Positions 2,255 to 41,912 of a DNA stretch of 55,623 nt are shown here, in pieces. A model generated the notes under the pieces. It was not told where the DNA came from and searched no databases. It was given only the letters and a program-made list of their open reading frames with translations. The position numbers and the translations under genes were made by a program. Within the stretch, counting starts at the first letter, position 1. Each line of letters begins with the position of its first letter. Source of the stretch: Vermamoeba vermiformis (lineage: Eukaryota); NCBI GenBank assembly GCA_045837725.1, contig JBEWZL010000114.1, forward strand, positions 1 to 55,623. Reading direction: 5' to 3'.

Positions 2255-5200
2255 ATGAACAAACTTCTTACTATCGCGGTTATTTTTGCTTTGGCCGTTA
2301 TGGCTATGGCTCAATGTAAGTCTTCGTAAATTGGGTTTACATCCTCCTATTGTTTCTTAAATCTACTTATTAATATGCTCCTCGTATTGTGTACTAATAT
2401 GTTCCTGGTTTAGCCTGCCCTCCTTCAGGATCAGCTTGCAGCGTATCTGGTTCCCCCTGCGTTATTTCTCAAAGTGGCTCTACTGACTCCAGCGACCCTG
2501 GTGTCTTCCCTAGACGAACCAACCTTTACTTCCCTCCTGCCACTAACACATATACTCAAACCATCACCTTCCCTACCCCCACCGTAGGTGAAGTTATGAT
2601 TCTTCAAGACATTGGCCCTGGCGTTGACGCTGATGACATTTCCTCCGTCTCTAACACCATTCAAGCCTTGTACAACTTCTTGGTTAGGGACTGGCCTTCC
2701 CTCAAGTTGGGCTTTGCTACCTTCAACCAATCCCTCGGTAGCTACATGGCTCGTACCACTTTGTCCAACGATGTCTCAAACAGAGGTTACTTGAAGTCTG
2801 CTATCGATGGTGTCGCTGCTAACTACGCTAGACGCAACGATCCTGTTATGCCTAATGGTGCCGTTTTGGATGCTGTTATTGATGCCGCCAAGGACACCAA
2901 CTTTGGCTGGAGCAAGTACTCTGCTAAGTTCATCATCGTATTGACTCGCTTTGGTTATCCTACTGCCTCTCCTTTCATGGACGCAGCTACCTTCAAGAGC
3001 AACTTGTTGCAATATGGCGCTTTGCCCGTCTTCTGCACCAAGATTGATCAAAACCCCGACGGCAAGTCTCAATTCCAAGCCTTGGTTAACTCTATGAAGC
3101 TCGGTGTTGTTGGTAACGGAAAGTAAGTATAGGACCATTTTCGGCAAGCGAATAGAAATTTCATTTTTTTTCCTTTTTTAGACTCAGCGATTAAATTATT
3201 TATTATCGGCATTGACTAACAGTTATCGCAGCACTCCTTCCAACAACCTCCTTGCTCAAGACCAAGGTAACTGGAACCAACTTGGCAAGTTTGGTGTCGA
3301 TGACCTTCGCACTGGCTACTTCGGCATTGGCAGTGGCAACAACCCTAACATCCAACACGTCATCACCCAAGGTGCTTCTTATGTTCAATCAGTCACCTAC
3401 TCCAAGAGCGGTAGCAACATTATTGCCACCATCGTCTACAAGTGGACCGACCCTGTTTACACTGTCTCTCCTTACGTCGTCATTAACTTTGTCGGCTACG
3501 GAGAAGTCATCACCACTATGAAGACTAACACTCCCCCTACCCTATCATCTGGTAGCTACACTCTTGCTCAAACCGCCACTGCCGATTTCTCTTTGATCGG
3601 TACTGATGTTGATGGCAACACCCTCTCCGTCTCCTACAACGGTCCTTCCCCAGCTCAAGGTATCTTCACTGGTACTTCCTCTACTGCTGGCTCTTCTTCG
3701 ACCACCTTCAGCGGTACCTACGATCCCGTAGACTCCTTCAACGGCACCTTCACTGTTCCTGCTACCGTTTCCGACGGATGCGCCACCGCTTCTGGTCAGT
3801 TGACCTTCACCGTCACCTACGTCAACAAGCCTCCTACTGCTTCTGACATCGCGGTCTCTACTAACAAGAACACCGACAAGACGATCGACTTCTCTCAAAG
3901 CATTTCTGATCCCGACACTGCTACCAACGCCTTGAAGGTTGTCATTGTTTCCTTGCCCCCTGTCTCTTCGGGTACTTTGTTGGTTGGCGGCTCTCCCATC
4001 ACTAGCCCCAACACTCAAATCACTGGCCAGTCTGTAGTCTTCCGTCCTGCTACCAACTTCGTCAGCGTGAGCGATGTTCAGTTTAACTACAAGGTCGTCG
4101 ATACCACTAGCTTGGAGTCTAACACTGCCACCGTCAGCGTTAAGGTCGTCAACACTAACTCTCCTCCTACTTTGAGCACTGACAAGAGTTCCATCACCTT
4201 GGCTAAGTCGAGCACTGCTACCATCACCGTCTACACATCCGATCCTGATGTCCCTGACAACGTTGACGTGACTCTCATTAGCAACTCTGTTAGTGGCAAC
4301 TCCAACTTTGCCTCTATCACCGTTAGCACTGGCAACACCTTCTCTGGCACCAACGAAATTGCCACTAACTTGGACACCAACGGCGGAATGAAGTCGTTTA
4401 CCATCACCTTTACCACTGTTGGTACCACCACCGCCTTCTCTGGTTCATTCTCTTTGCAAGCCAAGGACTCATTCAGTGCTACCTCTGGCACTGTCTCCGT
4501 CGGTGTAACCGTGACTGCTACTCCTCCTCCTGCAAACAATGCTCCTATCACTACGGCCCCTGGTGCTCAAAACACTAACTTGAACACCGACATCACCAAC
4601 ATCCCCCTTACTGGCCAGGATCCTGACGCCGCTGACAATGCCAACTTGAGACTCTTCTTGACTTTGTTGCCTAAGTACGGTACTCTCTTCTACAACAACG
4701 TCGCTGTCACTGCTACCGGTGAATTGGCTACCACTCTCCGTCAAAGCCCTGATTCGACCTTCCCTGTCACTTACAGACCTAACCTCAACTCGATCTCTGA
4801 CGACAGCTTCAGCTTTTACGTGCAAGATTCCTCCGGTGCTACTTCTAGCTCTCGTGTTGTCCCCATCACTATCAACAACACTAACCAGCCTCCTACTTCC
4901 GCTGACAAGACCGTCACCACTCCTCAAGACACTCAAGCTTCTTTCTCTTTGAGCACCTTCGATCCTGAAGGTCAAACCACCACCATTGAGCTTGTTACTG
5001 TTCCTGCTGGTGTTACTCCTTCTAGCGGTTCGGTCTCTGCTCCTTACTCCTTCACCTACGATCCTCCAGCTGGTCAATTCTCTAACCCCGATGGCTCTGT
5101 CTTCGCTACTATGACCTTTAAGGCCAAGGACTCTTTGGGCCTTTCCTCTGTCGCTACTTACACTGTTTCCTTCATCATCGACAGACTCAAGACTCCTCCT

Positions 5201-6874
5201 ACTTCTCAAGACGAGACCATCACCACCAAGCAGAACACCGGTGCCTCTGTTGTTCTTCAAGGCAACGGTCGCGCTCCTGTCGTCGCCGTCATTGACATTC
5301 CTGCCGGCTTCAAGGGCACTTTGTACTCTGACGCTGCTATGACCTCTGCCATCAGCACTGGCTTCGCCACCGACAGCACTCGTACCCTCTATTACATGCC
5401 TCCTCAAGACGGCGTTTCTATCAACGGTGCCATCTTCACTCAATTCTACTTCAAGGCTCGTGATTCTGACAGCTTGCTCTCTACCTCTACCTACACTGTC
5501 ACTATCTACGTTACTCCTAACAACTACGGTGGCTCCAAGACCGTTAACATTGACGAAGATACATTCGGTTTGATCACCTTGGCCCCTACCGATAACTTCG
5601 CTTCCACCGACGGCACTGCTTTGAAGGGCGTTATCTCCGCTGTCAACTCTGGCAATGGTGCTCTCTACTTCTGCACTTCCGAGTCTGCTTGCAGCACTAC
5701 CGCTATCTCTGGCACCCCCGTGATCCCCGCCGATGTCAAGTTCGCCAAGTTTGTCCCTGCTCCCGAAGACTCTGCTTCTCCTTACGCCACCTTCTCTTAC
5801 AAGTTGACTGACACCAACACTGCCATCGAAGCCACTTACGATGTTACCATCAACGTCATCCCCGTCAACGATCCTCCAGTCATCCATCCTGACTTCAAGG
5901 ACCGTGAAAGCACCCCTGCTGACACTCCTCTTAAGTTGACCTACTCTGGCACTGACATTGATGATGCCGTCGAGACTTTGATCAGCGTTGTTACCTACTT
6001 GCCTCAACGTGGTAGCTTGTACCGTATCGTCAACGGTGCTCAAGGAACTGAAATCACTGAAGCCGACAGCGTCGTCCTTGCCACTACCCCTGGCAAGTTC
6101 GAAGTTTTCTTCGTTCCTACCGCTGGCTCTTCTGGTCGTAACTACGCCACCGTTGCCTTCGCCATCCAAGATCCTCACGGTGCTCGCTCCAGCAACGCCT
6201 TCGTGACTATCAACGTCACCCCCGTCAACAGACCTCCTACTGTTACGGTTGGCGGTCCTTACAGAGTCGTTCAAAGCGACACTTTGCCCATCACCGAGAC
6301 CACCGTCGCCGACCCTGATGTTGGCAACTTCAACATGTTGGTCACTCTTCAACTCGAAGCCGGCTCCACTGGTACCTTCACTTTGACTGACGACCGTGCC
6401 TTCAAGGGTCCTTGCTCTTGGAACGCTGACAACACCGTCCTCTCCTGCAAGGCTCCTGAGAACAAGCTCAACAGCTTCTTGGCCTCTTTGACCTTCACTT
6501 CTGACGTTACTGGCGTTCACCACATTGTCGTTACTGTTGATGACTTGAACAACGGTGCTACTTCCGATCTTCGTGGCACTCCTGGTTTGACTGCCACCGC
6601 CACCATGGAAATCACTGTCGTTCCCCCTTCCACCGTCGTTACTGACAACAACAACCAAGACTTGACCATCGCCCTCTCCGTCTCTGGTGCTGGTGCTTTG
6701 GCTGCCCTCGGTATTGGTGGTTTCTTCTTGGGCCGCAAGTTGAAGAAGGCTGCTCCTGCTGATGACTACTTCAGCTTCATGAACGACGACAGCACTGACG
6801 TCAAGATCAATCCTCTGTTCGCTTCCAAGTTCGGAGGTCCTGCTGATAACCCTGTCTACACTGCTCAGGTCTAA
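2255..6874 (+). CDS. Sib (similar-to-integrin-beta)-like type I membrane adhesin: signal peptide, vWA-like domain, cadherin/Ig-like repeats, TM helix, two NPxY/F motifs
   Basis: Exons 2255-2315, 2414-3122 and 3232-6874 join in frame; MNKLLTIAVIFALAVMAMA signal; repeated 'VNxPP..D.D' units; Gly/Ala-rich TM; tail NPLF and NPVY; strong C/T-ending codon bias. Confidence 0.8.
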
Positions 6875-29427: not shown

Positions 29428-29600
29428 CACTAGAGGAAAGGTAACAGGGGGTAAAAACAGCGTTTTTGGCCACGGACAGTTTCACTCAGCAGCGATTTTC
29501 GAACGGGAGAAAACGCGAAAGAGAAAAAACGCTGTTTTCGGTAAGAGACGTTTTATTCGTTTTGATGTACAAACGTTTTTACACCGTTTTATAGCCTCCT
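29428..29600. repeat. Left TIR and subterminal CGTTTT/AAAACG repeats
   Basis: 17-bp TIR followed by several CGTTTT or AAAACG copies in both orientations. Confidence 0.8.
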
Positions 29601-29631
29601 CCGTTTCTTCTCGTTTCGGCCAGGCCTCCAC

Positions 29632-29678
29632 GAGTTCAGGACTTTGCGCGATGAAGAAAATCGCAAAGTCCTGAACTC
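29632..29678. repeat. Perfect 17-bp inverted repeat with 13-nt loop
   Basis: GAGTTCAGGACTTTGCG (29632-48) / CGCAAAGTCCTGAACTC (29662-78). Confidence 0.9.
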
Positions 29679-29694
29679 ACATCCACGAAGGCAA

Positions 29695-31612
29695 CTACGG
29701 AGAGGTCTATAGTGTAAAAGTAATAGAATTAATTATAGTAAATAAAGATATAATGATAGGACTTACTGATTTTTGCTTTTTCTTCTGAGCCGCGGTCGAA
29801 GTAGATTCGCTCAAGCTTGCATCGCGAGCAGTTCCTCGATAAAATTTAGTTAGAAGGATATTTAAATAATAATTAATATTAGTGCACTTACTCTTCTTTG
29901 GCTTATCGTTCGTGTTGTTGACTGATGCGCTCGCGGATCGCGTTACTCGATCCGTACTTGCCTGAGCCTCCTTGACCTCTTTCTCCTTCTCAGCGACCTT
30001 TTTCTTCGCACTCTTGTTGACCTTTGGTGATGAAGGCACGGAGAACGCAAAGTCGAATGGTACGTTGTCATCAGGCGCGTTCTTTTTCGTTGCCACTGCC
30101 TTCTTCGATGGAGGAGGTAGAGCCTTCGGCTTGTTGATTGTTGCTCTAGCAGGCAACTCTTCTTCGATGGGATTCTCAGGTGTGGGGATTGTGGCGTTGT
30201 TGTTGTTTTGTGAGATCAGTGACGACTTCAGTTTTGCAATGTCGTCGTCTTCAGTTGCCACCCTTGAAGGCTTCTTTGTCTTCTTTGTCTTCAGAGTCTT
30301 TTTGGGCGACTTGTCTTTCTTTGTCTTCTTTCCTGACGACTTCTTTGGCACCGGATCTTCTTCGTCTTCGTCGCTCTCAACGTGGATTGTCTTGTTGACC
30401 ATATCGCGCCTTCTTTTGCCAGCTGCAGGGGTCTTCTTTGGCTTGTCGCTGTTGGGTGTAGTTGTGCCTTTGTCCTTTTTCGACGATCCGCCCTTGTAGT
30501 TCGAAAGAAGCGTTTGTTCTGCGCGTTGTCCTTCAAGGTCCTTCAACTTCGGTCGCAAATCTGTCAGCATCTCGTTTTCGTTTGCATATTTTTCTATAAA
30601 ATATATCAATAGAGTTACTTGTTACAGCGTTGTACTTACGGCGCAGCTTGACGAATTTTCTTTTTACCCATTCAACGTACAGCGGCGGTGGTGTAGTGAT
30701 ACTAAGATTACTCTCGCTGATGTTCATCAACGTCTTCAAAAGCCAACGACGTAGCTGAGCAGCACCGGAGTTGGATTCAAAGAACGGTTCCAAATCTCGA
30801 TCAGCAACCTGGACCGGAAAGTCAGCTGTACCCCAAATATCCTTGTAGACGGCCTTGATGATTTTTGTCTTGTCACTATTTCGATACCGTCTCCATGCTC
30901 TGGTTACCTGAAGTAACGCGTTGTTGATCCGATTCAGATTCGAAGAATTCAAAGTACTTACATGGCCTGCTGCACTTCGGAACTGGTTCTCTGAGAACTC
31001 TCCCTTGATTGTTAGCGTCTTTATCCAGGCAAGATGGGGATCGACATGCTTCCATCTCGGATTCTGGCGGTAGGCTTCGACGAGCTGATCCACTGTTATC
31101 TGTGTCTATGTTGAACGTTATCAGTGCCATGCTATTTTAAATGGTTACTTACGTAGATGGGATCGTCTTTTGCCCCACCCTTCTGCCTCGTGGTCTTCAC
31201 GCCAAAGAAACTGAACACATCTGTGGCAACTTCGCGCGAAACCTGCAACGCTTCATCATCGCTTTTTAACCACTGCTTGATTTCGCCGCTGACCACAGTG
31301 CGTTTGAACGCCTCAATGAAGTCTGCCCTGGACATTTTGAGTCGAGCGAAGACGTCGCTAAGAAGATCTCGTTAGCAAGATTCGAAAAATATTTTTAAAA
31401 CCTTACTCTTCAGTCTGGCTACCCTCTTCATCGCTGATATAGTCATCACCTTCACGTTCGAAGCTGTCGTTGTCATTAATAAAAATCATACAAGCGAAAT
31501 TTTGATTTTTCAATCCGCCGATCAGGTTTGAAATGGATTGAATTGATGATTTCAAGGCTATTTTTAGGATATATATATATACTTACAATGATTGCTCTGA
31601 TTCGTCCGACAT
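29695..31612 (-). CDS. Transposon accessory orphan protein with basic low-complexity C-terminal half
   Basis: Phase-consistent exons MSDESEQSF|FEREGDD..|DDVFARLKMSR..|ITVDQLVEAYRQ..|QKYANENEML..KKKQKS|TSP*; divergent from the transposase ATG. Confidence 0.7.
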
Positions 31613-31905
31613 TGCAAATGTTTTGAAGCAGACTTATGGATCGGATTTGCAAGCTGGTACGAGTCGTTATTTATTCGTTGTCTATTGAAAATAACCATGA
31701 AAGTGGGAAATACGGCATCTATAGAACTTACTTTAGAAGTATAGCAGCTTCGAAGAGAGTTAGCACTGCGAGTTGTTGCACTGGTGCCGGCGCAGAGTAA
31801 AAATGAACGGCAAAAATTTTATCATTTTAAGTTGCAATTGCAATGGAGCGCCGCGGTTACGACCCCTACTCAGATAAAACTCTTTGTTATAATAAGACAA
31901 CGGAT

Positions 31906-34900
31906 ATGTTTACCTGCCTGGATTGCGGTAAAACGGTGGCACCAGCGACAGCCAAATCCCACCGAAAGTCAGATCAATGCTTGAACGTCGTTATAGCAAA
32001 AGGTAATGTCATATGATGGTTTATAAATATTCCGTAACCAGCGAGAGCATTAAATATTTTTTTTTGCACAAGCACGTAACCACACATCATTATTTATTAC
32101 TCGTTATTGATTAAGTAGTGGTAAATAACATTTCTGTATATCAGTGCCACGTTCTGTCTCCCGGTAAGCAGCCGATCGAACCAACGTTTCTGCATCTCTG
32201 CCGAAAACGTTAAAATTATTAATTCAACTATCATAATAAGTATACACATAATAATTAAAGCAATATGCACGATACAATTTATTTTTCAGTGCTGTTTAAA
32301 GTATTTTCGTAATTTAATCAGTTTTCGCATCCGTGCCTCAAGCAGCCAAATTTTAACGAATTCCTGCGATATCGCACTAATAGTTACTCCATATAGTGTT
32401 CTTTTAAAGCGATAGAGTGTTTGCTAGATTCGTCAAAAAAAATTAAAGTGCCCAGATCGGTTTAGAGTTGGTAAGTAAATGTCTGGTCGCACATTATTGT
32501 TCAAGTTAAATCATTAGCTCGTTATAATTACTAACAGGAAATGCTTCTAGGTTTCAACTTTGAGCAACTTGATTGCGACAACAAATGGCCCGTATTGTAA
32601 ACTTGGGTAGCACCTGCTACCTTGGCTCCGCACTACAGTTACTCTTCAGTGTAGATGGTTTCCGCGAGAAAATTCTTGCTTCAAATCCAACAACAACACT
32701 CGGTGTAGAGTTCAAGAGCTTGTTTCAACAGATGAATGACAGGAAGACTATCAACGTCAGAACATTTGCGCGGCTGCTGGGTATCACTGATGAGCAATGC
32801 CGCAAGAACCATGAAGACATACAAGAGTTTCTATTAAAGCTTAGAAGCAAGTTTGATAGTGATAGTGACATTAAAGTAATCATTGATTCAATATTTAATG
32901 GTGTTTTGCAATCAACTGCGACAACAAGTCAATTAGAGCCCTTTTTTGGTATGTCCTTGCACCAACTACAGCAAGCTTCTAACTGATTACAGACATATCC
33001 ATTCCTGTTAGCCATAAGGATGTTGTAGAGGGACTAATTAAAGCCTTCCATGATGTAAGTTTAGGCACTACTTGCAAATTTCTGACCGATGACTAGGTTC
33101 GAGTTGAGCACAAGTTTGCTTGCTTTCCAAATGCTCTATTGCTACATTTGAAGCGTTTTAGTATTGGGCAAAAGGTAGAGACACGCTGTGACTTCAAGAA
33201 GCGAATGGTTATCCCGGCAAAACTTAGTGCAAGTGGTCGTGCAGAGACTTATGTACTTAAATCCATTGTAATGCATGATGGTACAGTGAACGCAGGCCAT
33301 TACTTCATTTACACAATCACTAATGGCCAATGGTTCGAGCTGAATGATGAAAAAGTTTCAATGGGTGTATATATATATTACTAGTACTACTTAAGACTAA
33401 CTGACTGCAGGTTGCTGACACATTCATGTCTCAAACTATGGCTGGCAAGAGGTCAGCTTACATGCTACTTTATGTCCTTGAGAGGGCATCCTCACCAACA
33501 AAAGCAACACAACGCCCTCGCACATCAAAAGTCACTGCTGAATTTGTTCAGTGGGATAGTGTTTCATCTGATGCTGCTGAATCATATAGCTCAGGCAGTG
33601 AATTTTCATTTGATGATGAGTACTATGCAGATGACTGGGTCATGGAAAACCCAGCTCCAGAGAGTGATAGCTCAGAATCATCAGTTGCAAAGACATCCTC
33701 GGTTACTTCAGGTATGTTGGTAACAAGTAAGTTAGTTTTATTAATAGTATTTCAGCAACAAAGCGTCAAGCTAAATTAGCTGGTTGGAAAAATGATGGCA
33801 ACGATTTTGCCCCCAGTAAATCAAGCCTTCCTCCCGCAGCAGGCCCCAAACGGCCAATTATTTTGCAGTTGATTAATGACATTAGAAAAGAAAGATCTCA
33901 GTCTCCATTAAAATCAACATTGGATGTTACAGAGCAAGACTGTTATTTGCTGATTATGCATAGAATAATCAAACACATTGAAGAAAAAACACCTGCAGAA
34001 CTCAAAATAACTGTGAACGACATCAAAGCTTACTTAGGAGTTCGAGTGGCTCAACAATTAGCACCAGGACATGCAGTAGATGATGCATGGGCAAGCTTTT
34101 CACACTCTAGAGCAATGTGGGGCAATCGATGGATTGCCAAAACGATGTTGAAAGATGAATACAAACACATTCACCAGCACAAAGAGTAAGTCCTTTTGTA
34201 ATACCACAAACCATACTGACAGTCGTGTAGTTTTGACTTATATTTTGTTTGGGAGACCCTCAACAAAATATACTCTGAAATCTGGACCCCTTATGGACAT
34301 GTGGCACTTGATGACAAAGCCAATGCTTGGAAGGGACGATCCGTATACAAAATCTATCGACTTCGCAAGCCCTTTCCATGGGCAATGTTAGAATATGTTA
34401 TTGTTGATGAATATGGATGGATAATTGGCTTTATTCCCCGTTATGGCAATTTTGCAACAATTACTCCAAAGTACAAGTCATGGAAGGATAGTTACAACCA
34501 ATACAAATCAAATTCTGGTCCAAAACCTCTACCTTTTAAAACCATCCACCCAAGAACTAGCAAGACCAATTTTGATTTAGAGAAAGCAATCAACTTTCTG
34601 CTATCTCGATTACCAGACAAAGCCTCTGGAAAGCCAGCAGACTTTGTTTCCCAACCAACACTGAAGACAGATTGGACAGCAGAGATTGCTCGCGACCTGT
34701 CATCATACCATGTATTCAGTGATCGAGAATTCTCTGCATACTGGCAGCATTACCAGAAATACAACATAGGTTACACTGTTGGAATAGTTAGCAATTCATT
34801 TCCGTTCTTGTTTCGAGACAACTTGGCTATTGGCTTGGAACCTGGGGATTGGAAATCACTCACTAATATGAAGGAGATTGTGATGTCTTATTATGATCCA

Positions 34901-37900
34901 CAAGGCACTGTATGTCATTGGGCTAGCAACCGTGGCACCAGCGAAGCCATTTCAGAAGTAACAAACAAAGACAACAAAAAACAGAAGTTGAATTATTCAA
35001 CACCACACTTGGTTCAACAGTATAGAAAGTATTTTGCAGCAGTGGATAAGCATAATTATAAGGCAAAGAAGTTTTGTTGGCCATATCGCACCAGAAAAGT
35101 CACAGAACGTTACGTATTTGGAGATTGGGAGAGGTCAGCGCAAGTGCAAGCAGAAATTTTGTACCGGCAGCTTTCTGGAAGAGATATCTCAGCAAAGCAG
35201 TTTTTGGCAAATTTGGCCAAACAACTAGCTTCCGATTTTAAAACAAAGAGAAAAAGAACTCTCACTATTGATGCTTTGGACCTGGCCAATGCAGCAAGTC
35301 GACACAATCCTTACACCCATGTTTGTGCATATGAATTCAAAGAATCAAAAAGATGCTTTTACTGCCAAACAAACAAGATTTATTCGTCAACATTGTAAGT
35401 ACATCAAACTAGAACGAGTTATTGTTAACATTCTCCAGGTATAAATGCTTGCAGTGCAAAGTGGCTCTCCATAAGAAGTGCTGGAAAAAATTTAAGGGTG
35501 TAAATGTTTAAATTTGTAATGACATGTTGTATTACTGAAAGTAGTGCAATGGCATGTTCCATGTTGTGGTGTGACATGATCATGAAAGTGACTGCAGCCA
35601 CTTGACGCAAAGAAGGTCGGGTGTAGGCTTTGGCCTTTGGGTTAAGTCAGTGACTGCAGATTCATTGCACTATTATTCTGCTGGACCTACAGCTGTGTGG
35701 CATGTTCCATGTTGTGGTGTGACATGACCCAAGTATGGGCTGGACTTGATTTGACACGACAAAGGTCGGGTGTAGGCTTTGGCCTTTCGGAATGAGTCGA
35801 TCACTCCAGATTCACATAGCTGACGATGGTTTGGGCTATTATTGAGCTTTGAATGAGTTTTTACCAATATTTGGCTATCGTCTACATTGTATACAAACAG
35901 TTGGTTAAGGAATATTATTTAACATAAAGGCAGTTTACGAAAAGATTATAGCTGCTTCCTTTGAAGAGGATCCGATTCAGATTCAGACCAATAACGAGCT
36001 TGCAGCAGCGCCTTCATTTGGGAGAGAATTTATCATGACTTTAAACGATGAAGAGACATGGGTTTCTGAGGCTTTCGTGGCATTTGGACATACTTGGTAA
36101 TGTTATTTTCTAAAACGAGCTTCGAATCTGAATCCAAATTTTTAGGCAATTCGCTGCCAAAAAAAAATACAATCGGACCTACATTTATTTAAAATATATC
36201 CCAATGAGCGATATAGAATATGATATTCATTTCAACTTGGACATCAAAGTTAATGACAAGATCCGTAAGTTGCTGATCGACTTAAAGAGACGCAATTTCC
36301 TGACATTTTGCAGATGAATTCACAGATTTGCATATAAATACGATAGAAGATGAAGATATTTACATCAAATTTGAGGAGATTTTTGACGCGTTCGAGTTTG
36401 ACTTGATCAAACTGTCAATCAGGAAGATCGAACGAAAGAACGAAGAAGAGTAATGTGGAATTTAATTAAAAACATTACTAAATATTATTTTAGCGATTAT
36501 GAAGCGACTGAATTTCGCTCAAAACGACTCGAAACAATTCATTCGCAATACATCAACAAGCACGCCCGTTTGATAGATCAGTGGCTTTGTAAATGGCAGA
36601 TAAATCGTAAGAATATACAAATATTTAATTAAATAATTAACAACGTAATTTTAGGCCAAGCTGCTCTCGAGTTGTCGCAGATTCACCACACGCCAGGTTG
36701 GATTTCGACCCTTACCGCTCCGACACCCCACATCTACGATCAAATAAGGCCACACTTTTTCAGAGCATTTAAAATGAAGAATCTTGTTTGCAATATTGAT
36801 GGTGTCGACTTTGATCTCCCGTATAATACGCTGGAATCAATTTTGGATCACGTGCTCGAAAGTCCCAAGTTTATGAAAGGTATTTGATTAATATTTAATT
36901 TATTTATAACGCCGAATTATTCCGCAGGTTGGCATTACAAGTCGCAAGATAAGGATCCAAACCACCCGTCAAGTCGTCAAGCGTTCAAGATCTACGAAAC
37001 AGAACACAAAAAGCGTATTGATGCTGGCTACCAACTCGTTCTTCCCTATGTATGGATTGATCATTTTGTTGGTCAAGAGAGCAGAAACAACAGCTTCGGT
37101 TCTGTCATGGTTTCATTCGCTAACTTCTCTACGGATGTGTTGATGACACAAGAATCAAGGTTCTTGGTCGCTACAATTCCTCCTAATTTAAAAGAATTTC
37201 AAGACGACATTATCGACAAGATCATCGTTGATTTCTGCGTACAATTGGAAGAGGGCACACTCGCTAAGAAGAAATTTCCATTGCTTAAAGAGCCAGCTCG
37301 AATATGCGGCGGTCTCTATTGCGTCAAGGCGGATCACGTTGAGAAAGTTGGCCTTGCTGGGGTCGTCGCTACAGGTGGTCATGTCCTGTCCGTTTATACA
37401 ACTACACCAAGACATCGGATTACAGATGTCAACTACAAACGAGAATTCCGAGACCCAATGAAGTGTGAGTTAAATTAAATAATATTCGTACATGCGATAC
37501 TAATTCGCACTTATCACAGCGAAAGAAAAGGTTGATAATTGGTCAAGGTTACCAAAATCAAAACAAAAAGCAGCAACATACTCATCAGGCCTTACCGGCA
37601 AAAAAGTACGTACCTATTTAAAGTCAAAAATGAATCTAATTATTAGTAGTCACCATTCTGGCGACTGAAAATATTTTCGAAAGACTTCTACATGCGATTT
37701 GCCATCTGTTCGTTGCACCTGCTGCATCTCGGCATCGCTAAGAAGTACACTCAAGAAATTAGTCATTTGTTTCCGGTCGCTAATAAGAAGATGCCTAACA
37801 ACAACGATGTCGATGACAAAGGAAAGAAGAAAAAGAAGAAGAAGAAGAAGAAGAAGAAGGAACAAAAGTACCAAAAGAGTAAGCGATTTATTTGACGCAT

Positions 37901-39279
37901 CAAGACATTTACAATTTGACGCAGCAATCAACGAGCGAGCACGACAGTTACCATCCGCACATCACCTCACGAAGATTACAATGCCAATCTTCAATAAAGA
38001 GAATAGTAAGTTCATCTCGTTATGTATTCAACTAATAATTGACTTACCAGACACTGCTGGGCTAACTGGTCGAATGTGGTCAACATGGACTCGTGTTGCT
38101 ACGGGATTGCACGCTGACTTGCTCAAAGACAAGCAACTGCAACGCCTGAGCACTGTCATGGACGGTATAAGGACAATTGATGAGGTTATATGGACTGACG
38201 AGCTATTGGACGCGGGAGTATTGGACAATGTAGTCAAGGAGGTCGTTTCTGCTATAGTTGTAAGTGCGTTTACATGTCAACGGCAACGACACTAACAACA
38301 TTTATCAGGAAACATCGCAAGATGCTCCTGAGGATGTTAGAATCGATTGGGACATACCTAACATCGAAACTCTCTTCGCTCTAACTGAATCGATAAAGTT
38401 CCTGGGTCAACTTTGGTTCCAATCAACGGATCTAGACGAAGGCACGAACAAATTCCATCGCAAGTGCATCAAAGTGACCAATCACAAGAAGATAGCACAA
38501 CATCTGCTCAAGATGGTAATACCTTGTTGAGATGATAGCCTATTATTAATACAAATGATTAGGTTGCCGCACGAAGATCGATTGATTGCCAAGTATTTAA
38601 GACACCCGAGGAGAAGCGAGAATTCGAAGAGTTTAGCAAAGCTAATAAAAAAGAGAAGAAAACTAGGTAATAAACTTACTGCACGATTGATATTCTAATT
38701 ATGTGGCGTTCTTAGGAAGTTCCTTGATGGCTTGCACCCAACGGAGAAAGAGATCGATCGAGATGAACGCGAACAGATTCAACGAGCTCTGGCTGATCTA
38801 AGTACTGACAGAGTCAAGTACAAATTGAAGTCGAGAGAATCGACGCACTATGAATGTTAGTATTAGTTCTATTTGATTAGTACTGACACGTGTCACATTT
38901 AGCCGTCTTTATCAAAGGACGAAAAGTCGTACTGAAAGACAAGCCAACAATGATCTATAGGGTATGTAATATATATAGGAGTGTCGCGTACTTACCTACC
39001 ATGTAGACGCATGATGGAGTAGAGCATCACGGTGAGCTTCAGAACGTGTTCGAAATGGATGTGCTCGTGACCGAAAACGGAACTACTGAAACGAAGAAAA
39101 TGAAGTTCTTTTCGATACAAGCTATCAAATGCATTGAAGACTCACCCTTAACACAAAAGCCATTTGAGTACGAGGACCTAGATTGGATCACGTTGCCCAT
39201 CTTGGACGAAAAGGCCTTCGTATGCATGACCGCTAAAATTAAGGATTATTCAAATGCAAATCGATTTTTCCTCGTGTAA
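31906..39279 (+). CDS. CMC/EnSpm-type DDE transposase, multi-exon, with inferred 3.9-kb first intron
   Basis: VWIDHF (D ~37059), SFGSVMVSFANF, QLEEG, VKADH (D ~37332), CSLHLLHLG, PNIETL..LGQL..STDLDEGTN (E ~38438). Exon 1 (31906-32002, CxxC..H..C) is phase-compatible with the exon starting at 35934. Confidence 0.8.
32585..35511 (+). CDS. USP (peptidase C19) deubiquitinase - piggyBac-like transposase fusion, ~887 aa
   Basis: Exons 32585-32948, 32993-33054, 33097-33366, 33411-33711, 33756-34185, 34231-35394 and 35439-35511 join in frame. USP: NLGSTCY, HEDIQEFL, LHLKRF, HDGTVNAGHY, WFELND, AYMLLY. piggyBac: VALDDK..KGRS..Y..KP..W, YHVFSD, P..V..Y..AVD..RTRK, C-terminal RCFYC..CLQC..LH..C. Confidence 0.85.
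35540..35674 (+). ncRNA. Unknown structured RNA motif, copy 1
   Basis: Four-stem fold closed by AGUAGUGCAAUG/CAUUGCACUAUU; stems covary with copy 2; many G-U pairs favour the + strand. Confidence 0.65.
35690..35822 (+). ncRNA. Unknown structured RNA motif, copy 2
   Basis: Same fold closed by CAGCUGUGUG/CACAUAGCUG; identical core blocks, different but still paired stems. Confidence 0.65.
37823..37859 (+). repeat. (AAG)n tract encoding poly-Lys within the CMC transposase
   Basis: aagaagaaaaagaagaag.. in frame as a run of 12 Lys. Confidence 0.85.
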
Positions 39280-39749
39280 TAAAATAATTGTAATGATATA
39301 TAATAAAATAAATACTTACAGAAGTGAGATCGCATGCCGTTCAGATCGAGCGTCCGAATCTAAAATTCCTGTGCAATAAAAGTTGTTAGTAAGTGTTTTT
39401 TATGCCTAAATATGGACTGTGGAAGTCATTAAAGAATAAAAATAAAATGCTCAAGCGAGATTCGGATTGTTAGGGCATCCAAAATTTTTATCGAATTTTA
39501 ACATTTCGTTAATAAATTTAATATAATCTATGATAGCGATTTCGATATTTATTATCAAAATAATTTAAAAAATTCATCAAGCCGGGATCTCGATCCCGTG
39601 TCAGGGTCAAAATCCGACTTTTTTTAAAACTTTTGATTTTATTATTAAAACGAATAGTACTATACTAGTTCATCTTACCTTTGAAGCACCATCTCTATCT
39701 TCTATCGTGATGTGTCGCCACATCCGTCGCAAGTCGCCAAAATCGCCCT

Positions 39750-39836
39750 TTTCCGTTTTTGCCGTTTTTGTTCCCAGCCAAAATAAAAACGTTTGAGCCA
39801 AAAAACGGCAAAAAACGCCTTACATTTACTCTAGTG
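39750..39836. repeat. Right subterminal CGTTTT/AAAACG repeats and TIR
   Basis: ccgtttttgccgttttt, aaaaacg x3, ending ttacatttactctagtg. Confidence 0.8.
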
Positions 39837-40016
39837 TAATGGCGCACCGAGTTTTCACTTCAACTTTTGGTTGAAATCTGCCTAATACCGGCTTATCTAA
39901 TTAATATGTACCTCAGCTATTAAAAATAAAAGGAAACATGTTTATTCTATTTACAATAAATGATATTTTTGAAGCTTATTGAAAACGAAGCTGACGTAGA
40001 TGATTACAAATGAAGT

Positions 40017-41912
40017 TTATTTCAATAAAGATCGTAAAAACATTGCAAAATCAACATCAGTGAATGAATACGATAAGTACTCAAACACGTGCAACCAAAT
40101 CTCGATCGGCAAAATGAACGAAACTGGTTTTGCAACAATCATTTTGATCAACAGACACGTATCTCCAATAATTTGATCTTGAGTGTCGCGATTGCTTTTG
40201 AGTTTGTCTTCCAAATGAGGGTACTCTGAAGCACCTTCAATGAACTGCAGTGTTTTGTTCGATTTGAGCAGATCCAAAATAAAATCATCAATGTCTTTGC
40301 CGTTGGTACCAGCATTGTGTAGTCCAATATCTCGTATCTTTCCAATATGCAATTCTAATAAGCTTGTATTGGTCTTCAAAGCTTCAATAAACTCCGACAT
40401 AACTTGGTAGTCAATTCTCGAAAGTTTGAAGTACAATTTTCGGATCGATTTGTTTGCTGCTAATCCTTTTGCTATAGCTCTAATTATCCTTTCGCTCAAT
40501 TCCCCACTTCTTAGCAGTACTATCTTTAGCTCTTTAAGGGAGTAATTTTTGGTCAAATACATTTGTAGTGTTAAATCCGCAGTACCTTCTAGATCGGTCC
40601 TGGTACTAAATTCCAATCGCTGTAAAGTGTTGTTTTTGCATAATTCTGAGAATAGCTCGCCATAATGCGAAAGCCGAACTGGAATCACTCTCCACGAGGT
40701 TATAGTTAAATCCGTTATCGAACTGTTGGATCCTAGTTTTAGCGATGTGAGTTTCGGAAGAAAGAAATCCATATGGCTTAAATGTAACTTCTTTATATTC
40801 TTTTTTCCTATGATAATATCTTTGAGCGGGTTCCAATCGAGTGGATTTGTACAAACTGTCAGATCTGTTATTGAAGTGTTGCTTTTTAAGTCTTCCGCAA
40901 TATTGCCTAAATTTAAAGAACTATCTAATCTTCCTTGGAGCTTCAATTTCGTTAAATAATTGGCTTTAAGAACTTTTTGAAATTCTTCGTAATGGTGATC
41001 CAAGTTTCCGTAATTCCAAAATTCTCGAATTTGATTAGATATTAATATGCCATATAGCACTGCTAATCTATTTCCTTCTAAATTCGGCTCGCCTTCAATT
41101 TTAATCGATTTGATGGATCTGTTTGTTTTTAAACCTTCCAAAAGTGCATCGAAACAAGCCGCCGACAGGTTCGCATGTGAAATCAATAATTCCTCGAATT
41201 TATAGTGCTCCATATTACTGCAAAATATTCCTAATCCTTCCATTGACACCATGCGTGTTTCATACATTATCTCCAAAACCTTGATCCGCTCGTTTACTTT
41301 CAATATTTGAGCTATCGATTGAGTCAAATTACTTTCAAAATTATAACTTGTAAGCGTTATAGTCCTAATGCTTCTATTATGCTCTGTCAAGCATCGGACA
41401 AAACCTTTCAAATCCGATCGGGGAAGGTCGGTAAGGACTATTCGCGTTATAGTTTGATTATCTTTTAGTGCTTCTAGTATATGCCTATATACTGGTTCAT
41501 AAATGTGTGAGAGTATGAGTTGAGTGAAGTTTGGATCGAATCTGAACGGTGTGTGACTTTGGAGGCAATGGGATAGTTGATTAATATTTTTAACAATAAC
41601 CTTAATAGCAATATTAATATGATATGCAGTAACTTCAGCAGATTGATCATTTTTGGATAATTAAAATAAAATATTTTATTGGCAAGCCAAGTAATTCGTT
41701 TATTTAACCCCTATGCGTCAATATAATGTATTATTATTATTTACCTTAATTTCGTCAGCTTCACTCGTTACTTTCTGAGTTTGGTTTTTAGATTCGGATT
41801 TGCTTTGCCCTTGTGCTCTGTCACCCGTTCCGTTGCGATATCTTTTATAATAAATCCATACGGAAAGCGTAATGAGCACAGTTGTAACGATAGCGCTCAG
41901 TGCCGTGTTCAT
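40017..41912 (-). CDS. RNI-like LRR protein with C-terminal F-box-like motif (paralog B; N-terminal TM anchor exon)
   Basis: Colinear with paralog A, same attaag acceptor and same LPIEIWLHVFEYL; exon 1 MNTALSAIVTTVLITLSVWIYYKRYR..EIK|gtaaat. Confidence 0.8.

What the first reader, a model, noticed from the sequence alone, without database searches (positions are those of the whole stretch)
31906..35933. Transposase first intron is ~3.9 kb and contains a whole same-strand gene
Seen: an otherwise orphan exon MFTCLDCGKTVAPATAKSHRKSDQC..AK-G|gtaatg (phase 1) joins cag|TT TAC GAA at 35934 in frame. The other transposase introns are only about 40-50 nt. Inference: making the CMC transposase requires skipping the nested gene, so splicing or polyadenylation choice could toggle between the two transposases.
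Basis: inference. Interest (0 to 1): 0.75.

Follow-up and report, generated by a model that had tools for sequence, protein, structure and literature searches.

The report
Transposon nested in another transposon's intron
The 3.9-kb "first intron" is a normal short intron of one transposon's transposase gene that was swollen when a second, unrelated transposon (a piggyBac-type element fused to a deubiquitinase domain) jumped into it; this is ordinary transposon nesting, not a shown genetic switch.

Summary
Observation confirmed. The exon at 31906-32002 (ATG, C2HC finger, phase 1, donor GTAATG) joins 35934 in frame. A spliced RNA contig of run X1 carries exactly this junction.

The contig differs from the window at 6 of 151 bases there. 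Another X1 contig leaves the window exactly at 39836. So the RNA probably comes from a paralogous copy, and splicing across 3.9 kb at this locus is not shown.

The intron content is an independent mobile element of about 3.89 kb:
- A 14/15 inverted repeat sits at both intron ends (4 of 5000 controls reach it).
- A metagenome contig, L001, carries a 65%-identical full-length relative. Its homology stops at window 35918 and it has a different flank.
- CpG observed/expected is 0.56 inside the insert against 1.2-1.3 outside.

The insert's 887-aa gene fuses a USP deubiquitinase domain to a piggyBac-type transposase. Without the insert the intron would be about 33-40 nt.

The host gene lies in a 10.4-kb CACTA-type element, 29428-39836, with 15/17 TIRs.

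The "toggle" idea has no support. The nesting is ordinary. I found no published USP-piggyBac fusion in my searches.

The parts
29428..39836 (.). Outer CACTA-type (CMC/CMCT-clade) DNA transposon, 10,409 bp, flanked by TA on both sides
   Evidence: The termini are CACTAGAG at 29428 and CTCTAGTG ending at 39836; each 8-mer occurs once in the window. The TIR is 15/17 by my reading, and it is the only reverse-complement match of 14/17 or better in the window. An X1 contig runs on unlike the window exactly after 39836 (loose ends).
29428..29444 (+). Left TIR of the outer element (CACTAGAGGAAAGGTAA)
39820..39836 (-). Right TIR of the outer element (reverse complement CACTAGAGTAAATGTAA)
   Evidence: divergence point of the X1 contig
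29707..31650 (-). Accessory gene of the outer element, divergent from the transposase gene, Lys-rich, no family. The upper limit of about 31650 is approximate.
   Evidence: ORFs. Spliced in X1 with CT..AC joints at 31105/31153, 31357/31407 and 31463/31587, depth 42. No Pfam family. Atlas scores are 0.86 or lower.
31906..32002 (+). Transposase exon 1: Met plus a C-x2-C-x12-H-x5-C finger, phase 1. The 5' UTR reaches at least 31850.
   Evidence: zf-LYAR E 0.0017, below the cut-off; X1 record 2 begins at 31850
32003..35933 (+). Transposase intron 1, 3931 nt, GTAATG..CAG. A branch-like TTTAAC at 35918-35923 lies outside or at the edge of the insert.
32024..35918 (+). Inserted piggyBac-type transposon, about 3.89 kb. 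The ends are known to within about 3 nt.
   Evidence: Inverted repeat at both ends. Homology with L001 ends at 35918. CpG o/e is 0.56 against 1.22-1.27 around it.
32026..32040 (+). Left terminal inverted repeat of the insert (AATATTCCGTAACCA)
35902..35916 (-). Right terminal inverted repeat of the insert (TGGTTAAGGAATATT on the + strand), conserved in L001
32585..35511 (+). Nested gene, 7 exons (32585-32948, 32993-33054, 33097-33366, 33411-33711, 33756-34185, 34231-35394, 35439-35511), 887 aa. It comprises a USP/UCH deubiquitinase domain, a linker, a piggyBac DDE_Tnp_1_7 domain and a Cys-rich tail.
35550..35814 (+). Two tandem copies of about 115 nt (spacing 148-149 nt) in the insert's 3' non-coding part, also duplicated in L001
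35934..39279 (+). Transposase exons 2-16 (35934-36096, 36146-36264, 36314-36449, 36494-36606, 36655-36879, 36928-37464, 37520-37605, 37650-37878, 37925-38005, 38051-38259, 38309-38515, 38563-38666, 38716-38855, 38903-38961, 39007-39279)
   Evidence: Model. 10 of the 14 short introns appear as X1 joints in the rows shown. Relatives.
37907..39836 (-). Spliced antisense non-coding RNA over the 3' half of the transposase gene
   Evidence: CT..AC joints in X8 (contigs 0-1 letters different from the window) and in X1. Canonical minus-strand splice sites and no long ORF.

Best explanation
A roughly 3.89-kb autonomous piggyBac-type DNA transposon inserted, in sense orientation, into the originally short first intron (about 33-40 nt) of the transposase gene of a 10.4-kb CACTA-type transposon. 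The insert's single 7-exon gene encodes a USP deubiquitinase domain fused to a piggyBac transposase.

Exon 1 of the host gene (an N-terminal C2HC finger), its donor, and the branch/acceptor region all lie outside the insert and are intact. The host transposase mRNA can therefore still be made only if the whole inserted element is removed as part of intron 1.

Shown:
- the two gene models;
- the junction in RNA of a near-identical copy;
- the insert's inverted repeats;
- an independent relative of the insert in a different context;
- the compositional break at the insert's edges;
- the outer element's CACTA termini.

Inferred:
- that the insert arrived by transposition, since no empty site was seen;
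- that in a genome whose other introns are 42-123 nt (one antisense intron is 310 nt), pairing across seven well-defined internal exons is inefficient. On that reading this copy of the host transposase is more likely crippled than regulated.
For: (1) Gene models. The host gene has 16 exons and 925 aa. The nested gene has 7 exons and 887 aa. All short introns are 42-55 nt.

(2) Domains. The nested gene matches UCH at E 6.3e-12 and 1.1e-15, and DDE_Tnp_1_7 at E 9.1e-10, all above Pfam cut-offs. The USP Cys box aligns with USP34 and the His box with Ubp8. D27, D164 and D272 of the big exon are invariant in 3 of 3 sequences and align with the piggyBac/piggyBat DDD positions, although those PDB alignments are weak, E 0.4-0.6.

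(3) Inverted repeat. It is 14/15 at 32026-32040 and 35902-35916, 23 nt and 17 nt from the splice sites. With only the outer 60 nt of each intron end compared, 4 of 5000 shuffles and 4 of 5000 random window pairs reach its score.

(4) Independent relative.
- L001, a 4379-nt metagenome contig, encodes a full-length USP+piggyBac relative: 555 of 854 aligned residues identical, with introns at the same places by eye.
- In the big exon, pN is 0.16 against pS 0.755, which is saturated.
- Its 3' non-coding DNA aligns up to window 35918 and then diverges.
- L001 has no match to the host transposase or to any other part of the window.

(5) CpG o/e is 0.56 in the insert, against 1.22 and 1.27 in the outer element and 1.18-1.19 in the flanks.

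(6) RNA contig X1 record 2 carries the 32002/35934 junction.

(7) Distant relatives of the host transposase begin with N-terminal CxxC..H..H fingers: P0020, P0027 and P0013, that is 3 of the 4 hits with a long N-terminal part.

(8) The outer element has CACTA termini, and the X1 contig diverges at 39836.
Against: - No empty site (a copy of the outer element without the insert) was seen. No whole genome is held.
- The target-site duplication is unclear. The canonical TTAA stands only at the right (35919-35922). A perfect TTTA/TTTA pair requires a 1-nt length difference in the repeat.
- When the whole non-coding flanks (610 x 460 nt) are searched, the inverted repeat is not exceptional: score 25 against shuffles with mean 20 and maximum 28. 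Its significance rests on its position at the intron ends.
- L001 starts about 22 nt inside the element, so its left terminus is not seen.
- The nested gene's splicing has no RNA support. X1 depth is 0 over 32806-35815, and a hole there proves nothing.
- The junction contig is not identical to the window, so splicing of the 3.9-kb intron at this locus is not shown.
Confidence: 0.85

Rival explanations
1. Regulated toggle. One promoter upstream of exon 1 drives both genes. The choice between splicing 32002 to 35934 and splicing or polyadenylation inside the intron decides which transposase is made.
For: Both genes are on the same strand, and both reading frames are intact. X1 has a little depth (0.3-0.8) over 32204-32805, at the 5' part of the insert. 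The pieces behind that depth were not listed.
Against: - The nested gene has its own roughly 560-nt upstream region inside its own inverted repeats, and it occurs elsewhere without the host gene.
- Joining exon 1 to the acceptor at 32549 gives a stop after 16 codons, and this short frame overlaps the nested ATG at 32585 (frame 0).
- Read-through without splicing stops at 32014-32016 (ORF 31831-32016).
- No chimeric joint appears in the rows shown.
Confidence: 0.06
2. The insert is now a stable passenger. The composite (outer element plus insert) transposes as one unit, and the 3.9-kb intron is spliced well enough for the host transposase to be made from this and other copies.
For: The donor, acceptor and branch-like site are intact. 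The host ORF is intact over 925 aa. The junction exists in RNA of a copy whose intron length is unknown.
Against: - The X1 transposase contigs differ from the window at many CpG sites, about 22 differences over 1181 nt. The accessory-gene contig is nearly identical, 1 difference in 311 nt holding 22 CpGs. So the expressed transposase copy is not this one.
- Every other sense intron seen here is 123 nt or shorter, and the one longer antisense intron is 310 nt.
Confidence: 0.07
3. The exon at 31906-32002 is a chance ORF or belongs to something else, and the transposase starts at ATG 36035.
For: An in-frame join has a 1-in-3 chance. The zf-LYAR hit is below the cut-off.
Against: An RNA contig has the exact junction and continues through the next intron. 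N-terminal fingers are present in 3 of the 4 long relatives. Exon 1 lies outside the insert's inverted repeat and has no match in L001.
Confidence: 0.02

Closest known systems
piggyBac superfamily transposons (T. ni piggyBac, 6x67; piggyBat, 9c0f)
   Same: - DDE_Tnp_1_7 domain above the Pfam cut-off.
- The three catalytic Asp positions are kept.
- The tail is Cys-rich, CxxC...CxxC...H..C (read).
- The terminal inverted repeats are short.
- The element has a single gene.
   Different: - An N-terminal USP (peptidase C19) domain is fused in the same reading frame. This is conserved in L001.
- The gene has six 42-45-nt introns.
- A TTAA duplication is not evident; there is a possible TTTA.
- Similarity to solved piggyBac transposases is only faint, E 0.4-0.6.
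CMC / 'CMCT' clade transposons (EnSpm/CACTA, Plavaka, ESTA), as described in PMC12730594 (passages read)
   Same: - The termini are 5'-CA..TG-3', here CACTAGAG..CTCTAGTG.
- The flanking repeat is short: TA on both sides. The paper gives 2-5 bp for the clade and TA for ESTA.
- A second, accessory gene is present.
- The transposase has D...D blocks (WIDHF..., CVKADH...) shared with the 28 relatives.
- The atlas neighbours carry Plavaka (60% of one cluster) or tnp2 (64% of another).
   Different: - No Pfam family reaches its cut-off. The best result is Plavaka at E 1.6e-4, in 2 of 29 family members and not in the window's exon.
- The C(2)C motif named in the paper is not seen after the second D in the window's protein. 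Only CSLHLLH is present (read).
Transposon-encoded (de)ubiquitinase-like proteases: Ulp1 in Mutator/CACTA/Ginger, OTU and VTD in Helitrons (PMC9741609 passages; PMC2836005 search listing only)
   Same: A papain-fold ubiquitin or Ubl protease is carried inside a DNA transposon's own protein, with catalytic residues kept.
   Different: Here the protease is of the USP/C19 class and the carrier is piggyBac. My literature searches listed no such fusion. Repbase and supplements could not be searched.
Nested transposon insertions in introns (general; from established knowledge, recalled), and maize En/Spm, whose TnpA and TnpD come from alternative splicing of one transcript (recalled)
   Same: A transposon sits inside an intron and is removed with it. 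En/Spm shows that splicing choice can select between two transposon proteins.
   Different: Here the two proteins belong to two unrelated elements, and no alternative splicing linking them was seen.

Membership tests
piggyBac superfamily | Transposase with the DDE_Tnp_1_7 (PF13843) domain | tested here: met
   E 9.1e-10, 38.8 bits against a cut-off of 22.4, on exon 34232-35392. Relatives P0029 and P0030 carry a precomputed PF13843 annotation.
piggyBac superfamily | Catalytic DDD triad | tested here: inconclusive
   D27, D164 and D272 of the exon are invariant in 3 of 3 sequences. They align to the first D (T. ni piggyBac, piggyBat), the second D (piggyBat) and the third D (both). However, those phmmer alignments have E 0.4-0.6, and the residue numbering of the solved proteins is recalled.
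piggyBac superfamily | TTAA target-site duplication | tested here: not met
   TTAA stands only at the right (35919-35922). The left flank reads GGTTTATA. A TTTA/TTTA pair is possible if the repeat arms differ by one A. The flank of L001 reads GGCA/AATG. The ends are uncertain by about 3 nt, so this weakens but does not exclude membership.
piggyBac superfamily | Short terminal inverted repeats | tested here: met
   14/15 at 32026-32040 and 35902-35916; 4 of 5000 controls reach the score. The right arm is conserved in L001.
USP/UCH deubiquitinases (peptidase C19, PF00443) | UCH domain with Cys box and His box | tested here: met
   PF00443 at E 6.3e-12 and 1.1e-15 on two exons. NLGSTCY aligns with NLGATCY of USP34. 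GTVNAGHY...ELNDEKV aligns with Ubp8. Activity was not tested.
CMC/CMCT clade (EnSpm/CACTA, Plavaka, ESTA) | Termini 5'-CA(CTA)..(TAG)TG-3' with TIRs | tested here: met
   CACTAGAG at 29428 and CTCTAGTG ending at 39836, TIR 15/17. The right end coincides with the divergence point of an X1 contig.
CMC/CMCT clade (EnSpm/CACTA, Plavaka, ESTA) | 2-5 bp target-site duplication | tested here: inconclusive
   TA stands on both sides (..AAAGTA | element | TAATGG..). Two bases can match by chance, and a 3-bp duplication is not present.
CMC/CMCT clade (EnSpm/CACTA, Plavaka, ESTA) | Transposase matching Transposase_21 (PF02992) or Plavaka (PF18759) | tested here: not met
   The window's exons give no hit at E up to 1. 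Two of 29 family members hit Plavaka, best E 1.6e-4, 21.5 bits against a cut-off of 26.3. Atlas neighbours carry Plavaka or tnp2, which is a lead only. Only single exons could be scanned, not the spliced protein.
CMC/CMCT clade (EnSpm/CACTA, Plavaka, ESTA) | [quoted passage not shown] | tested here: not met
   By eye on the translation, there is no CxxC after CVKADH. Only FAICSLHLLHLG, that is C(2)H(2)H, is present. Relative P0018 keeps CRFC.

The most novel reading that the evidence does not exclude
The sense-oriented USP-piggyBac element is not a dead-weight insertion but a hitch-hiker coupled to its host. The composite moves as one unit. The exon-1 donor can pair either with the far acceptor (35933) or with acceptors of the nested gene. 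Activity of the CACTA-type promoter, splice-site choice or polyadenylation would then set the ratio of two unrelated transposases, with the fused deubiquitinase possibly stabilising one or both.
Probability: 0.06. Interest if true: 0.65.

Novelty: new variant of a known kind. Interest (0 to 1): 0.33.

Why it matters
**The nesting.** A transposon inside another transposon's intron is ordinary.

Three things are still worth keeping.

**(1) A USP-piggyBac fusion.** A piggyBac-type transposase is fused to a USP-class deubiquitinase, and this fusion is conserved under purifying selection in two elements only 65% identical.
- It adds a new protease class and a new carrier superfamily to the known theme of transposon-borne ubiquitin or Ubl proteases.
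- It gives a compact pair of natural sequences on which to test what a deubiquitinase does for a transposase.

**(2) A natural test of intron size.** The locus asks whether a genome with introns of about 45 nt can splice a 3.9-kb intron that contains seven competing exons.

**(3) A poorly sampled transposase family.**
- The host element belongs to a lineage with only 28 hits among 1.84 billion representative proteins.
- Its termini are CACTA.
- It carries an N-terminal C2HC finger.
- It has a divergent accessory gene.
- A spliced antisense RNA runs over its 3' half.

Tried and rejected
- **Whole genome.** None is held, so no copy census and no empty site.
- **Other copies in the window.** Neither gene has another copy there.
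- **The search for homologous proteins.** Searching 'longer' with the host exon and with the piggyBac exon found nothing. Searching 'near' with the piggyBac exon found 2 hits.
- **First metagenome scan with the host exon.** 52 pattern matches, none confirmed.
- **TIRs of the outer element next to exon 1.** Aligning 31400-31910 against 39280-40020 found nothing above shuffles. The left end turned out to lie at 29428.
- **Motif AACGGCAAAAA.** It occurs at 31806, 39756 and 39804: 8 matches with up to 1 mismatch, against 2.7 expected, and 1 of 100 shuffles reaches 8. I have not built on it.
- **TTAA-anchored end search for the insert.** No convincing pair.
- **Palindromic-target idea.** I considered that the 15-nt repeat was a palindromic target around a TTAA. 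I rejected this because L001 shares the right arm while its flank differs.
- **Raw RNA runs X10 and X12 (same species label).** Only 8 and 10 reads were laid, 90-99% alike, all at about 37923-38524, and none elsewhere in 31000-40000. These runs say nothing about either gene. They may not contain this element.
- **Runs X2-X7, X9 and X11.** Their small word shares are no evidence.
- **Earlier findings of the scan.** Nothing to show.
- **Pfam and atlas on the accessory gene.** Nothing usable.
- **Literature.** Four searches for a USP-piggyBac fusion and one for nested insertions in transposase introns gave no direct precedent. Supplements and Repbase were not available and might hold one.

Full report
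**1. What is in the sequence**

The window is eukaryotic DNA with very short introns.

*The host gene.*
- It starts at ATG 31906. A 97-nt exon encodes MFTCLDCGKT...AK-G and ends in phase 1 at a GTAATG donor (32003).
- Joined to the base after the CAG acceptor at 35931-35933, the frame continues through 15 more exons to a stop at 39277-39279. That gives 925 aa.
- The other 14 introns are 44-55 nt, all GT..AG.

*The nested gene.*
- Inside the 3931-nt gap lies a complete same-strand gene of 7 exons (32585-35511).
- Its six introns are 42-45 nt, and it encodes 887 aa with no internal stop.

*Coordinates and chance.*
- An in-frame join alone has a 1-in-3 chance, so independent evidence was needed.

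**2. RNA evidence**

I laid four public runs on 31000-40000.

*Run X1 is spliced RNA.*
- It is kept as assembled contigs and labelled only 'RNA?'. It must nevertheless be RNA, because its contigs lack the short introns of genes on both strands.
- The rows shown contain 10 of my 14 short host-gene introns. They also contain three CT..AC introns of the upstream minus-strand gene.

*The junction.* X1 record 2 (816 nt, depth 11.1) runs 31850-32002 | 35934-36095 | on across the next intron. This is exactly the predicted 32002/35934 junction, with GT..AG ends.

*The limits of that evidence.*
- The exon-1 piece has 6 other letters in 151 nt.
- The transposase pieces of record 3 have 22 other letters in 1181 nt.
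- The contig of the neighbouring accessory gene has 1 other letter in 311 nt.
- Another X1 contig matches 39729-39836 and then continues for 255 letters unlike the window.
- The expressed transposase copy therefore sits at another locus, or at least is another allele. Its intron-1 length is unknown.
- So the junction is shown for the element family. Splicing of 3.9 kb at this locus is not shown.

*The other runs.*
- X1 depth over the nested gene (32806-35815) is zero, with traces of 0.3-0.8 over 32204-32805. The tool warns that holes prove nothing.
- Two raw-read RNA runs with the same species label (X10, X12) gave only 8 and 10 imperfect reads. They are uninformative.

**3. Exon 1 belongs to the transposase**

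- The largest host exon (178 aa) has only 28 hits among 1.84 billion representative proteins, and most are fragments.
- Four hits extend 150 or more residues upstream of the matched region. Three of them (P0020, P0027, P0013) begin within their first residues with CxxC...H...H fingers.
- This matches the C-x2-C-x12-H-x5-C of exon 1.
- Exon 1 also gives a sub-threshold zf-LYAR hit, E 0.0017.

**4. What the nested gene is**

- Pfam finds UCH/USP on two exons (E 6.3e-12 and 1.1e-15). It finds piggyBac-type DDE_Tnp_1_7 on the large exon (E 9.1e-10). All are above their cut-offs.
- The USP Cys box (NLGSTCY) and His box (GHY...ELNDEKV) align with solved USPs.
- The three Asp residues that align with the piggyBac DDD positions are invariant in the three available sequences. 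The PDB alignments themselves are weak.
- The tail is Cys-rich, as in piggyBac transposases.

**5. The intron content is an inserted, independent transposon**

Four lines of evidence agree.

(a) *Inverted repeat at the intron ends.*
- A 14/15 inverted repeat lies at 32026-32040 and 35902-35916. Its arms are 23 nt from the donor and 17 nt from the acceptor.
- Comparing only the outer 60 nt of each intron end, 4 of 5000 shuffles and 4 of 5000 random pairs of window segments reach its score.
- In an unrestricted search of the flanks it is not exceptional. The argument therefore rests on its position.

(b) *An independent relative elsewhere.*
- A metagenome contig, L001 (4379 nt), encodes a full-length USP+piggyBac relative. 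555 of 854 aligned residues are identical, and the introns fall at the same places.
- In the large exon, non-synonymous difference is 0.16 while synonymous sites are saturated at 0.755. The fused protein is therefore under purifying selection.
- L001's 3' non-coding DNA aligns with the window's up to 35918, including a duplicated unit of about 115 nt and the right repeat arm. It then diverges.
- Its 525-nt flank, and the rest of the contig, match nothing else in the window and not the host transposase.

(c) *Compositional break.* CpG observed/expected is 0.56 inside the insert. It is 1.22 and 1.27 in the two parts of the outer element, and 1.18-1.19 in the flanks.

(d) *Intron length without the insert.* Removing the insert leaves an intron of about 33-40 nt, in line with all the others.

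The target duplication is unresolved. The canonical TTAA is present only on the right. A TTTA/TTTA pair fits if the arms differ by one A.

**6. The host element**

- The point where the X1 contig leaves the window (39836) ends in ...CTCTAGTG. The reverse complement, CACTAGAG, occurs once in the window, at 29428. The termini match at 15 of 17 positions.
- By my own arithmetic, a match of 15/17 or better to a given 17-mer is expected about 0.004 times in 55.6 kb.
- The host gene therefore lies in a 10,409-bp CACTA-type element (29428-39836), flanked by TA on both sides.
- The element also carries a divergently transcribed, spliced, Lys-rich accessory gene of no known family.
- Classification. 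The termini and TA flanks fit the CMC/'CMCT' clade as described in PMC12730594 (passages). Atlas neighbours carry Plavaka or tnp2.
- Against this, Pfam gives only sub-threshold Plavaka hits, in 2 of 29 family members. The C(2)C motif is not visible in the window's protein.
- I file it as CMC-like by its ends, and as a distant, poorly sampled lineage by its protein.

**7. How it most likely works**

- *Shown:* two intact reading frames, intact splice signals of intron 1 outside the insert, and the junction in RNA of a sister copy.
- *Inferred:* the piggyBac-type element transposed into the short intron. From then on, making the host transposase from this copy requires pairing a donor with an acceptor 3.9 kb away, across seven exons that have strong splice sites of their own, in a genome where all the other introns modelled or seen as joints here are 310 nt or shorter. 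I think this copy's transposase output is more likely reduced or lost than regulated.
- The X1 data fit this loosely. The accessory-gene contig is nearly identical to the window, while the transposase contigs come from a CpG-decayed copy. Contigs drop minor variants, so this is weak.
- *The toggle idea has no positive evidence and some against it.* Unspliced read-through stops at 32014-32016. Splicing exon 1 to the nested gene's 5'-UTR acceptor (32549) gives a 16-codon extension that overlaps the nested ATG.

**8. Novelty**

- Nesting of one transposon in another's intron is commonplace (established knowledge).
- Transposon-borne ubiquitin or Ubl proteases are known: Ulp1, OTU and VTD (PMC9741609 passages).
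- A USP-class domain fused to a piggyBac transposase did not turn up in four full-text searches. Repbase and supplements could not be checked, so I claim only that I did not find it.

**9. Verdict**

- The best explanation is a nested piggyBac-USP insertion in intron 1 of a CACTA-type transposase gene, with confidence 0.85.
- Interest is modest, 0.33, and comes mostly from the USP-piggyBac fusion and the splicing test case.

Noticed in passing
window 36000-39300 (differences between X1 contigs and the window): Of the differences listed, 20 of 21 G>A and 6 of 8 C>T lie in CpG. The window has CG where the expressed X1 copy has CA or TG. This suggests methylation-type CpG decay of the sister copy, with a strand bias of 20 against 6. 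The accessory-gene piece, with 22 CpGs in 311 nt, shows 1 difference.
   Followed up: partly
window 37907-39836, minus strand: A spliced antisense RNA without a long ORF runs over the 3' half of the transposase gene. Its introns are 37989-38047, 38249-38357, 38848-38995, 39086-39145, 39233-39319 and about 39368-39677. It is seen in contigs of a root-metagenome RNA run (X8, 0-1 letters different from the window) and in X1. It may be a silencing or regulatory transcript.
   Followed up: partly
window 32024-35918 against its surroundings: CpG observed/expected is 0.56 in the inserted element, against about 1.2 in the outer element and in host DNA. The insert family has a history of CpG loss that its host element copy lacks.
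   Followed up: partly
window 35550-35814 and L001 3494-3760: A unit of about 115 nt is duplicated in tandem (spacing 148-149 nt) in the 3' non-coding part of the piggyBac-type element. It contains a perfectly conserved 30-mer and is kept in both the window and L001. It may be a subterminal transposase-binding repeat.
   Followed up: no
window 29707-31650, minus strand: This is the accessory gene of the outer element. It is spliced and well expressed in X1 (depth 42). It is Lys-rich, with no Pfam family and no convincing atlas neighbour.
   Followed up: partly
window 3182-6874: A 1230-aa open frame in a stretch of 50% G+C with strongly negative GC skew carries SibA-like Ig, bacterial cadherin-like and Big_9 domains. 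It looks like a large adhesion-type host gene and is compositionally unlike the rest of the window.
   Followed up: no
window 37830-37860: An (AAG)n run encodes a poly-Lys tract (KKKKKKKKKKKK) inside transposase exon 37650-37878. Reads seemed to be cut there.
   Followed up: no
window 40017-41660, minus strand: A 547-aa single-exon open frame lies just outside the right end of the outer element. It has a repetitive leucine-rich look and no Pfam family.
   Followed up: no
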